Of a stretch of DNA of 64,000 bases, positions 47,095 to 47,375 are shown piece by piece; the stretch's first letter is position 1, and the number at the start of each line of letters is the position of its first letter. The DNA lies in IMG/VR virus record IMGVR_UViG_3300032046_000009, one strand, 5' to 3'. The translations under genes and the position numbers were made by a program. The DNA is from a virus (lineage: Duplodnaviria; Heunggongvirae; Uroviricota; Caudoviricetes). Below the pieces are notes generated by a model. It worked only from the letters and a program-made list of their open reading frames with translations. It ran no database searches and was not told where the DNA came from.

Positions 47095-47375
47095 TGTGGG
47101 GACGGGTAAAGTACACCCGACCCCATAGCTATCACGGCGAGCCGTTGCCAATCCGTATATCATAGTGTACGTTTCGCTCCCACCGTGGGTCTTCGGTCAT
47201 GACACGGTTTTGTCAGGGTTTCGCCACCCCCAATGCATTGCTGGCGGGTTCACCCAACTCCTATAGGTCTTGTTCGTTGTCCGACCAATCATGTTGTCGC
47301 CAATCGTGTACCCGAAAGGTCCTAACATGGGGCATGTCCATCTATGTAAGTTGTGAACAATTACCCGTGTCTAAG
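47095..47375 (-). ncRNA. candidate GC-rich structured RNA
   Basis: TATA 47395-47404 fires leftward; hairpin ggggacgggt/acccgacccc 47098-47124; interleaved long-range pairs. Confidence 0.45.

What the first reader, a model, noticed from the sequence alone, without database searches (positions are those of the whole stretch)
47095..47375. GC-rich structured RNA candidate transcribed from its own promoter
This is a roughly 280-bp island clearly GC-richer than its surroundings. It has no credible minus-strand ORF. A minus-oriented TATA (gtatataaactttacgg, 47395-47411) points into it. The far end has a near-perfect 10-bp hairpin (ggggacgggt..acccgacccc, 47098-47124). On the minus strand GACACGG pairs with a distant CCGTGTC, and CCCCAT pairs with ATGGGG. 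The two pairings interleave, which suggests a pseudoknot. There is also a CCCACGGTGGG palindrome and a direct repeat gattggcgacaac / gattggtcggacaac. The overlapping plus-strand track ORF 47199..47402 has no start context.
Basis: partly seen in the sequence, partly recalled or inferred. Interest (0 to 1): 0.6.

Follow-up and report, generated by a model that had tools for sequence, protein, structure and literature searches.

The report
New structured RNA gene, archaeal-type virus
The GC-rich island is very probably a stand-alone gene for a roughly 285-base folded RNA of a previously undescribed family, carried by a group of uncultivated, probably methanogen-infecting viral elements; what the RNA does is still unknown.

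Summary
The island is real and is the most GC-rich stretch of the window (57% against a 38% mean). On the minus strand it forms a discrete unit. A BRE/TATA-type promoter lies at 47411-47396, followed by a conserved body of about 285 nt (about 47372-47087). The unit ends in a hairpin (47124-47098) and a T-rich tail. A second promoter then serves the next gene.

I found seven further distinct homologues in related metagenomic contigs. Promoter, body and hairpin are all conserved. At nucleotide level the RNA is conserved about as well as the neighbouring protein gene, and clearly better in the four closest relatives.

Ten helices are supported. Of 55 pairs, 94% are canonical and 36 show compensatory changes. 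Slid-partner controls give 34-47% canonical, and 0 of 1000 shuffles reach the observed values.

Indels shift the reading frame and no ORF is conserved, so it is not coding. Rfam 15 and ARAGORN find nothing.

The CCCCAU/AUGGGG pairing, the pseudoknot, the local palindrome hairpin and the direct repeat are not.

Function is unknown. My best guess is a trans-acting protein-binding or scaffold RNA. No transcript evidence was available.

The parts
47396..47411 (-). BRE + TATA-box type promoter (CCGTAAAG TTTATATA) of the RNA gene
   Evidence: The motif is enriched 15 against 0.35 expected. It is conserved in homologues. Its spacing to helix P1 is 22-26 nt in all eight sequences. TTTATATA is the methanogen 'box A' pattern (PMC2699501).
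47087..47372 (-). Predicted RNA of about 285 nt. The 5' end is inferred from the TATA spacing and the 3' end from the hairpin and T-rich tail.
   Evidence: The block is conserved in 8 distinct sequences. There is no Rfam or tRNA match.
47365..47371 (-). P1 5' arm, GACACGG. It pairs with 47201-47207.
   Evidence: 98% of cells are paired, and 4 of 7 pairs change on both sides.
47201..47207 (-). P1 3' arm, CCGUGUC, preceded by the invariant AAAA (47208-47211)
47335..47359 (-). P2 hairpin (UGUUCA...UGGACA), preceded by the conserved junction RUAAU (47360-47364)
   Evidence: 4 of 6 pairs are compensatory, for example UCCCUA/UGGGGA, UGCCUA/UAGGCA and CACCCA/UGGGUG. RNAalifold recovers it.
47285..47331 (-). 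P3 (CC-CAUGU-UA ... CA-ACAUG-bulge-GG) enclosing P4 (47300-47319), whose apical loop is conserved as GURCAC (47307-47312)
   Evidence: P3a has 4 of 5 pairs compensatory (CGUAU/GUACG in L010, UACAU/AUGUG in L077). P4 has 7 of 9.
47256..47284 (-). Conserved single-stranded junction GGACRACSAAC, followed by the P5 hairpin AAGACC-UAUA-GGAGUU
   Evidence: These are invariant columns in the alignments. The inner P5 pair switches C-G to U-A in 4 sequences.
47212..47255 (-). P6 stem-loop with apical A-UGCA-U. It is present only in the long subfamily (window, L012, L009, L010).
   Evidence: It is absent as a clean deletion of about 38 nt in L013, L075, L071 and L077. The stems covary within the long subfamily.
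47133..47187 (-). Domain 2: helix P7 (CACGGU-GG-GAGC ... GCUC-GCCGUG) enclosing a variable interior
   Evidence: P7a is 100% paired and 4 of 6 pairs are compensatory (ACAGGG/CCCUGU in the short subfamily).
47087..47124 (-). P9 terminal hairpin (47098-47124) and T-rich tail ACAUUCUAUUU: the putative transcription stop
   Evidence: The hairpin is present in all homologues with compensatory changes. A (C)UAUUU(U) tail is conserved in most of the homologues. It does not meet the bacterial intrinsic-terminator pattern.
47071..47086 (-). Second promoter (CCATAACCTTTAAATA), serving the downstream 145-aa gene. It is not part of the RNA.
   Evidence: It is conserved in front of that gene even in relatives that lack the RNA (L006-L008, L011, L076). 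The ATG lies 30 nt after the TATA.
46603..47040 (-). Downstream neighbour: a 145-aa protein with an invariant HEVLHQ...LD..H motif and unknown fold. It was used to find the homologues.

Best explanation
The island is a stand-alone gene for a stable, highly structured non-coding RNA of about 285 nt. It belongs to an RNA family that has not been described. The carrier is a clade of uncultivated AT-rich viral or other extrachromosomal elements whose promoters and ATPase point to an archaeal, probably methanogen-like, host.

Shown by comparison:
- A BRE/TATA promoter of the element's own type sits 22-26 nt before the first helix.
- The RNA folds into two domains.
- Domain 1 is a multi-helix junction closed by the long-range helix P1 and holding P2, P3/P4, P5 and an optional P6.
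- Its nearly invariant unpaired strands (RUAAU, GGACRACSAACAAGAC, AAAA) and conserved apical loops (GURCAC, UGCA) sit on freely covarying stems.
- Domain 2 is helix P7.
- A GC-rich hairpin plus a T-rich tail ends the unit before the next promoter.

Inferred, not shown:
- It is transcribed by the host RNA polymerase as its own short transcript.
- It acts in trans. Its conserved junction and loop nucleotides form a tertiary core or binding surface for a viral or host protein, so it works as a scaffold or decoy RNP component during infection.
- It is not a message and not a leader of the next gene.
- It is dispensable in some lineages, because a natural deletion variant exists.
For: 1. Discrete conserved unit. 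Seven further distinct homologues were found in related contigs, with 62-89% nucleotide identity to the window. The neighbouring protein gene shows 60-81%.
2. Promoter. The motif occurs 15 times against 0.35 expected, is conserved upstream of the homologues, and keeps a constant spacing. The TATA pattern is the one reported for methanogen stable-RNA and protein genes (PMC2699501).
3. Structure, whole RNA. On an alignment anchored on invariant flanks, 55 pairs are 94% canonical and 36 show compensatory change. With the 3' partner slid by 1-3 nt the figures are 34-47% and 4-9. None of 1000 column shuffles reaches the observed values.
4. Structure, independent predictions. RNAalifold finds the same helices on that alignment and on plain MAFFT alignments of each subfamily.
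5. Structure, tool count. On a plain MAFFT alignment, P1 and P5 are 98.9% paired with 5 pairs changed on both sides. Slid controls give 14-50%.
6. Strand. There are 26 G-U against 10 A-C cells, and the promoter and hairpin orientations agree.
7. Not coding. Indels of 1, 2 and 4 nt occur between homologues and no frame is shared. No gene is called inside it in 8 loci.
8. Archaeal affinity. The element's ATPase scores best against archaeal KaiC/RadB/ArlH families, and a relative encodes a Topo VI-A-like protein.
Against: - There is no transcript evidence of any kind.
- Only 8 distinct sequences, in roughly 5 lineages, were available. R-scape-type significance could not be computed, and the full-length structural alignment was built by hand, although it was anchored on invariant flanks.
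- Predicted folding energy is not better than shuffled sequence (z = -1.26).
- The hairpin is not followed by a long T-run.
- The trans-acting scaffold or decoy role is pure inference. No partner protein was identified, and the adjacent 145-aa protein gave no fold or family match.
- Host assignment rests on promoter type and a few protein similarities. No capsid or terminase gene was recognised in the window.
Confidence: 0.85

Rival explanations
1. It is a cis-acting leader (riboswitch, attenuator or protein-binding 5' UTR) that controls the 145-aa HExxH gene immediately downstream.
For: The RNA lies directly upstream of that gene family in 6 of the 8 RNA-bearing loci, and within about 2 kb in the other two. 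Invariant junction nucleotides on covarying stems resemble aptamer architecture.
Against: A separate promoter of the same type lies between the RNA's terminal hairpin and the gene. That promoter is kept in relatives that lack the RNA altogether (L006-L008, L011, L076, L073). In L009 a 454-aa AAA ATPase gene, and in L010 four small genes, separate the RNA from the 145-aa gene. The ATG is only 30 nt from its own TATA.
Confidence: 0.07
2. It acts at the DNA level, as a replication origin, a packaging site or a cluster of protein-binding palindromes and repeats, rather than as RNA.
For: It contains short palindromes (CCTATAGG, ATGCAT, GTAC) and a direct repeat. The 8-nt P5 palindrome is kept as a palindrome in three sequence variants.
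Against: Long-range compensatory changes occur in helices 35-165 nt apart. G-U outnumbers A-C by 26 to 10, which is a single-strand, strand-specific signal. The direct repeat is not conserved. There is no overall excess of palindromes. There is no GC-skew turn at the site. The unit is framed by a promoter and a stop hairpin.
Confidence: 0.03
3. It is the remnant or cargo of a mobile element (intron, MITE or homing-endonuclease cassette) with no function of its own.
For: There is a presence/absence polymorphism. L073 and L074 encode the identical 148-aa protein but lack about 293 nt that L071 and L072 carry. An HNH endonuclease gene on the opposite strand lies 600 nt away in the window.
Against: The variant retains the 3' half of the terminal hairpin, so it is an imprecise deletion rather than an empty site. 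There are no terminal repeats or target duplications and no intron model match. The HNH gene is absent next to the other homologues. The position is syntenic and the sequence shows purifying, structure-preserving evolution.
Confidence: 0.03
4. It encodes one or more small proteins, for example the plus-strand 67-aa ORF 47199..47402.
For: Stop-free frames of 57-99 codons exist on both strands of the homologues.
Against: GC-rich sequence has few stops by chance. Frames are not shared, and indels of 1, 2 and 4 nt and a 38-nt deletion separate homologues. Substitutions are paired across helices. No gene caller called it. The plus-strand ORF has no promoter or ribosome-binding context.
Confidence: 0.02

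Closest known systems
Large orphan structured RNAs associated with phages and prophages (GOLLD, ROOL; also OLE, raiA, HEARO)
   Same: It is a virus-associated, independently transcribed, multi-helix RNA supported by covariation. Sequence conservation is concentrated in junctions and loops, and the function is unknown.
   Different: No covariance-model match even at E <= 10. It is much smaller (about 285 nt against roughly 500-800 nt, from my own knowledge). The helix layout is different. The promoter is archaeal-type rather than bacterial. It is not next to tRNA genes.
phi29-type packaging RNA (pRNA)
   Same: It is a virus-encoded stand-alone structured RNA with its own promoter that would act in trans as part of an RNP. 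Some apical loops are self-complementary and could mediate RNA-RNA contacts.
   Different: No match to the Rfam pRNA model. No pair of mutually complementary loops was identified. No portal or packaging genes were recognised nearby. The RNA is missing from close relatives, which would be unexpected for an essential packaging component.
Archaeal stable-RNA genes (RNase P RNA, SRP/7S RNA) driven by box-A TATA promoters
   Same: The promoter type is the same (TTTATATA with an upstream BRE; PMC2699501). It is a GC-rich island in an AT-rich genome and has a similar length.
   Different: No match to the archaeal RNase P or SRP models at E <= 10. The universal motifs, such as the GGAAAGUCC-type P4 strand of RNase P, are absent on reading the sequence. 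The helix layout is different.
Abundant decoy RNAs of eukaryotic viruses (adenovirus VA RNA, EBV EBER)
   Same: This is a functional analogy only: a short, highly structured viral RNA from its own promoter that binds proteins instead of coding.
   Different: The host domain is different, there is no sequence or structural relation, and the analogy is untested.

Membership tests
Independent structured ncRNA gene (generic definition) | Own promoter and own stop signal, separate from neighbouring genes | tested here: met
   A BRE/TATA lies at 47411-47396 and a hairpin plus T-rich tail at 47124-47087, followed by a second promoter. The layout is conserved in the homologues, except that L010 lacks a clear second promoter. 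This rests on sequence only; there are no transcript data.
Independent structured ncRNA gene (generic definition) | Secondary structure maintained by compensatory substitutions | tested here: met
   55 pairs are 94% canonical and 36 are compensatory. Slid and shuffled controls fall far below.
Independent structured ncRNA gene (generic definition) | No conserved reading frame | tested here: met
   Frameshifting indels occur and no frame is shared. No gene is called in 8 loci.
Independent structured ncRNA gene (generic definition) | A discrete transcript is detected | not testable with these tools
   No RNA-seq or metatranscriptome data were available.
Any Rfam 15 family (including RNase P, SRP, tmRNA, group I/II introns, pRNA, GOLLD, ROOL, HEARO, OLE, raiA, riboswitches, ribozymes) | Score against the family covariance model at or above the gathering threshold | tested here: not met
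   There were 0 matches at gathering over the whole window. There were 0 matches at E <= 10 over 46900-47600. There was no match on the RNA in three homologous loci at E <= 5.
tRNA / tmRNA | Cloverleaf or tRNA-like domain detected | tested here: not met
   ARAGORN found 0 genes in the window.
Riboswitch or other cis-regulatory leader | Lies in the 5' UTR of the regulated gene, with no promoter in between and an expression platform overlapping the gene's start or terminator | tested here: not met
   A separate conserved promoter lies between the RNA and the gene. The gene keeps it where the RNA is absent. Other genes intervene in L009 and L010.
Archaeal C/D-box sRNA | Conserved C (RUGAUGA) and D (CUGA) boxes forming a K-turn | tested here: not met
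   UGAU- and CUGA-like strings in the window are not conserved in the short subfamily (alignment). The length is about four times the typical one.
Nuclease or recombinase guide RNAs (IscB/TnpB omega RNA, IS110 bridge RNA, tracrRNA) | Adjacent gene for the partner nuclease or recombinase | tested here: not met
   Pfam annotation of neighbours in the window and in all homologous loci shows no such gene.
Group I intron with homing endonuclease | Interrupts a host gene, has a P1-P9 core, and the endonuclease lies inside or adjacent | tested here: not met
   The flanking genes are complete: the upstream ORF ends with the element's usual C-terminal motif. There is no intron model match. The HNH gene is present only in the window-type contigs.
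phi29-type pRNA | Two loops complementary between subunits; binds the portal of a packaging motor encoded nearby | tested here: inconclusive
   There is no model match. Self-complementary loops exist, but no complementary loop pair was identified. Portal and terminase genes were not recognised in 64 kb. Binding is not testable here.

The most novel reading that the evidence does not exclude
This would be the first member of a new class of large structured RNA specific to archaeal (methanogen-type) viruses. Its invariant junction strands on covarying helices would form a catalytic or ligand/protein-binding core, making it a new ribozyme, aptamer or RNP scaffold. It may be one of several such RNAs in the same genome: a second promoter-led, strongly folding unit lies at 8565-8822.
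Probability: 0.3. Interest if true: 0.8.

Novelty: categorically new. Interest (0 to 1): 0.66.

Why it matters
To my knowledge, large structured RNAs with conserved tertiary-looking cores are rare and none has been described for archaeal viruses. Past examples (RNase P, riboswitches, pRNA, GOLLD/ROOL) each opened a line of work.

This one has a clear gene structure, a testable secondary-structure model and natural long, short and deletion variants. It sits in a lineage absent from phage reference collections and IMG/VR.

If it is transcribed and abundant, it offers a handle on how these unexplored elements manipulate methanogen-type hosts. It is also a compact candidate for structural or biochemical study.

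The caveat is that the novelty is at the level of RNA family and context. The function, and hence any new mechanism, is not established.

Tried and rejected
SEARCHES THAT FOUND NOTHING USEFUL
- Rfam at the gathering and permissive thresholds, on the window and on homologous loci, found nothing. ARAGORN also found nothing.
- The bacterial sigma-70 promoter and intrinsic-terminator scan found no promoter pointing into the island and no terminator.
- BLAST of the region and of two large proteins against the phage collection gave no match.
- IMG/VR searches with flanking proteins, the gene-junction motif and four RNA-derived patterns found no true relatives.
- The GTDB genome scan with a conserved RNA pattern gave only chance hits, so no cellular homologue was found at that sensitivity. 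The metagenome scan with the same pattern added one near-identical copy.

STRUCTURAL IDEAS REJECTED
- The GGGUA/UGCCC helix that RNAalifold proposes for the long subfamily overlaps P1 and is not maintained in L013 or L077.
- An RNA dimerisation or cage idea, based on self-complementary loops, is weakened. There is no overall palindrome excess.
- MAFFT alignments of all eight sequences misregister P2 and P3 between subfamilies. The tool count was therefore restricted to P1 and P5, and the rest was counted on an anchored alignment in Python.
- A covariance model was not built, because the seed registers conflicted and no new sequence could have been searched with it.

NEIGHBOUR GENE
The 145-aa neighbour gave a poor AlphaFold model (pLDDT 63) and no Pfam, PDB-sequence or Foldseek match. 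It therefore gives no functional lead.

Full report
WHAT IS IN THE SEQUENCE

The window is AT-rich (38% GC). It is packed with short, mostly minus-strand genes whose stops and starts overlap. Between the 54-aa ORF 47412..47576 and the 145-aa ORF 46603..47040, both on the minus strand, lies a 371-nt gap. Its centre is the most GC-rich stretch of the whole window: 54.5% over 47100-47299, with a peak of 57% in 150 nt.

THE ELEMENT AND ITS PROMOTERS

It occurs 15 times in the window against 0.35 expected, and 14 of the 15 copies are on the coding strand. A looser form, AANNTTTAWATA, occurs about 45 times. There appear to be two flavours, one followed by GGACG and one followed by a pyrimidine tract.

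Where a gene follows, its start codon lies 30-36 nt after the TATA and is preceded by a GGT/GGTG Shine-Dalgarno-like element. A purine-rich element directly abutting TTTATATA is the archaeal BRE plus TATA-box arrangement. The TWTATATA/TTTATATA pattern has been reported as typical of methanogens (PMC2699501, read).

Other evidence fits an archaeal host:
- The element's 314-aa ATPase scores best against archaeal KaiC, RadB and ArlH families.
- A relative encodes a Topo VI-A-like protein.

There is no similarity to any record in the phage collection or IMG/VR. No capsid or terminase gene was recognised. 'Virus' is therefore a working label for an uncultivated extrachromosomal element.

HOMOLOGUES

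The downstream 145-aa protein has 22 relatives in the large protein collection. I fetched their contigs and searched them with nhmmer. This gave seven further distinct copies of the island:
- L012, L009 and L010, which with the window form a 'long' form
- L013, L075, L071/L072 and L077, which form a 'short' form lacking one stem-loop of about 38 nt

There are also near-identical copies (L003-L005, L037).

In every case the conserved block starts with the BRE/TATA motif and ends with a GC-rich hairpin and a T-rich tail; in seven of the eight a second promoter follows. The first helix begins 22-26 nt after the TATA. That places the predicted start at about 47372.

Nucleotide identity to the window is 62-89% for the RNA, against 60-81% for the adjacent protein gene.

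The RNA lies directly upstream of the 145-aa gene in six loci. It is separated from that gene by an AAA ATPase gene in L009 and by four small genes in L010. It is absent, while the gene's own promoter is retained, in L006-L008, L011 and L076.

L073 and L074 encode the same 148-aa protein as L071 and L072 but lack about 293 nt. They keep the 3' half of the terminal hairpin. This is a natural deletion, so the RNA is dispensable at least in some settings.

STRUCTURE

Single-sequence folding is unremarkable (z = -1.26), so the case rests on comparison.

Method. I segmented the eight sequences at invariant anchors: RUAAU, YGCC, GGAC..AAGAC, GAGUU, AAAA and GACC. I then counted the pairs.

Ten helices emerge:
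- P1: 7 bp, long-range. It is GACACGG/CCGUGUC in the window, UACACGG/CCGUGUA in L071 and UGCGCGA/UCGCGCA in L077.
- P2: UGUUCA/UGGACA, UCCCUA/UGGGGA, UGCCUA/UAGGCA, CACCCA/UGGGUG.
- P3a/b/c: CAUGU/ACAUG, CGUAU/GUACG, UACAU/AUGUG.
- P4: its apical loop is conserved as GURCAC.
- P5.
- P6: present in the long form only, with apical UGCA.
- P7a/c: CACGGU/GCCGUG against ACAGGG/CCCUGU.
- P9: the terminal hairpin.

Counts. Over 55 pairs, 94% of cells are canonical and 36 pairs show a change on both sides. Sliding the 3' partner by 1-3 nt gives 34-47% canonical and 4-9 such pairs. None of 1000 within-column shuffles reaches the observed values.

Independent checks:
- RNAalifold recovers the same helices on this alignment.
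- It also recovers them on plain MAFFT alignments of each subfamily.
- On a plain MAFFT alignment of domain 1, the pair-counting tool gives 98.9% pairing for P1 and P5, with five pairs changed on both sides. Slid controls give 14-50%.

Strand. G-U cells outnumber A-C cells by 26 to 10, which favours the minus strand as the folded one. The promoter and hairpin orientations agree.

Pattern of conservation. The helices vary freely, while the junction strands and some loops are nearly invariant. That is the pattern seen in RNAs with a tertiary core or a specific binding surface.

Right:
- the GC island
- the promoter and its direction
- the terminal hairpin
- the distant GACACGG/CCGUGUC pairing
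- the non-coding nature of the overlapping ORFs

Not supported:
- The CCCCAU/AUGGGG pairing, and therefore the pseudoknot. Each partner belongs to another covarying helix, and the pairing is lost in diverged homologues.
- CCCACGGTGGG as a local palindrome. It is the 5' arm of P7.
- The direct repeat. It is not conserved.

NOT CODING, NOT A KNOWN RNA

Homologues differ by indels of 1, 2 and 4 nt and by a 38-nt deletion. The longest stop-free frames fall on different strands and frames. No gene was called in this interval in any locus, apart from an over-extended start of the downstream gene in L077.

Rfam 15 gives no match at gathering thresholds over the window. It gives none at E <= 10 over the region and none on the RNA in three homologous loci. 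ARAGORN finds no tRNA or tmRNA.

No nuclease, recombinase or reverse-transcriptase gene that would make this a guide or template RNA is present next to any copy.

HOW IT MOST LIKELY WORKS

Shown: the gene structure, the fold and the conservation pattern.

Inferred: the host RNA polymerase makes a short, stable transcript that acts in trans. Its invariant junction and loop nucleotides bind a viral or host protein, or possibly form a catalytic or ligand-binding core.

I put 0.85 on 'independent structured ncRNA gene'. I put much less on any particular function, roughly 0.3 that the function turns out to be mechanistically new.

The main rival is a cis-acting leader of the 145-aa gene. It is disfavoured by the intervening conserved promoter and by the loci where other genes intervene. 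DNA-level, mobile-element and coding readings are each poorly supported (see the rival explanations).

COMPARISON AND NOVELTY

In kind, it resembles the orphan large structured RNAs of phages (GOLLD, ROOL) and stand-alone viral RNAs such as phi29 pRNA. In promoter and composition it resembles archaeal stable-RNA genes. It fails the membership tests for all of these.

I therefore rate it as a new RNA family. I chose 'categorically new' for the fold and family, not for a demonstrated mechanism. It sits in an undescribed, probably archaeal, viral lineage.

LIMITS

- Only eight distinct sequences were available.
- The full-length alignment was built by hand.
- There are no expression data and no identified partner.
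- The host is inferred indirectly.

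Noticed in passing
window, about 55 sites on the minus strand (e.g. 44320, 44072, 43669, 21640) and 3 on the plus strand (48962, 49141, 49257): A motif of about 22 nt, rGAGAAGGTGCAATTYAC(A/T)TGA, spans most gene junctions. The upstream ORF ends ...(E/K)KVQFT*, and the next ORF starts at the ATG or TTG that overlaps the TGA stop. It looks like a Shine-Dalgarno-like GAAGGTG plus a spacer of fixed sequence. 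That degree of conservation is unusual for a translational coupling or re-initiation signal, and it forces a common C-terminal peptide on dozens of unrelated small proteins.
   Followed up: partly
window 8565-8822 (-), promoter at 8856-8841: This is a second promoter-led, ORF-free, GC-rich unit with the same layout: BRE/TATA, a body of about 250 nt, the hairpin GAACACGGGGG...CCCCCGUGUUC and a T-rich tail, then another promoter. It folds far better than shuffles (z = -6.4) and has no Rfam match. By eye it shares the short motifs CUGACAAAA(AA)CC, ACAAGACC and a G-UACA-CG loop with the RNA studied here. Chance is not excluded, and nhmmer sees no overall homology.
   Followed up: partly
window, about 45 sites (e.g. 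60842, 58726, 55285, 24587, 16713, 14329, 7960, 3538 against 63123, 62722, 61783, 48838, 47407, 47082): There appear to be two flavours of the BRE/TATA promoter. One is followed by GGACGnnG and the other by a pyrimidine-rich tract (CTTCTTTT-like). They may be temporal classes. The RNA gene and its downstream neighbour both use the second flavour.
   Followed up: no
window 5900-6369 (-): The promoter at 6369-6354 is followed by a long hairpin (AAGGGCGAAGGG...CCCTTCGCCC). After it comes a C-rich, G-poor tract of about 380 nt with CCCCTAA-like repeats and no ORF. Promoters at 6952, 8856 and 36625 share the same 45-nt surroundings (ATGGTCTTTCTAcc...TTTATATAgnnGTTTGAcat) and are not followed by an ORF of 40 aa or more.
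   Followed up: no
window 1-5400: This is a dense cluster of promoter copies on both strands, with few long ORFs. It includes tandem 26-nt promoter repeats at 27-95 and GC-rich islands at 1659-1866 and 2083-2299. It may be a regulatory or terminal region, or further small RNA genes.
   Followed up: no
L072:2540-2950 against L073:1317-1430 and L074:1-100: Contigs from runs of one study (ERR128144xx) encode the identical 148-aa protein, with or without the RNA gene. The RNA-minus form keeps only the 3' half of the terminal hairpin, and the contig of L074 starts exactly at the breakpoint.
   Followed up: yes
window 46025-46453 (+): An HNH endonuclease gene lies on the strand opposite to almost all other genes, just downstream of the 145-aa gene (PHROG 2255). 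It is present in the window-type contigs (L003-L005) but not at this position in the other relatives. It looks like a free-standing homing endonuclease insertion.
   Followed up: partly
window 46603-47040 (-) and P0001-P0022: The 145-aa protein family has an invariant HEVLHQ...LD..H motif that looks like a zinc metalloprotease. It has no Pfam, PDB-sequence or fold match. The AlphaFold model was poor, with pLDDT 63.
   Followed up: yes
window 47262-47267 region (P5 apex, 47260-47267) and homologues: The 8 nt at the tip of P5 form a perfect palindrome in all three sequence variants seen (CCUAUAGG, CCCAUGGG, CUGCGCAG). A simple tetraloop hairpin does not require this. It could reflect an intermolecular contact or a 3-bp stem with a 2-nt loop. 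There is no overall excess of palindromes in the RNA.
   Followed up: partly
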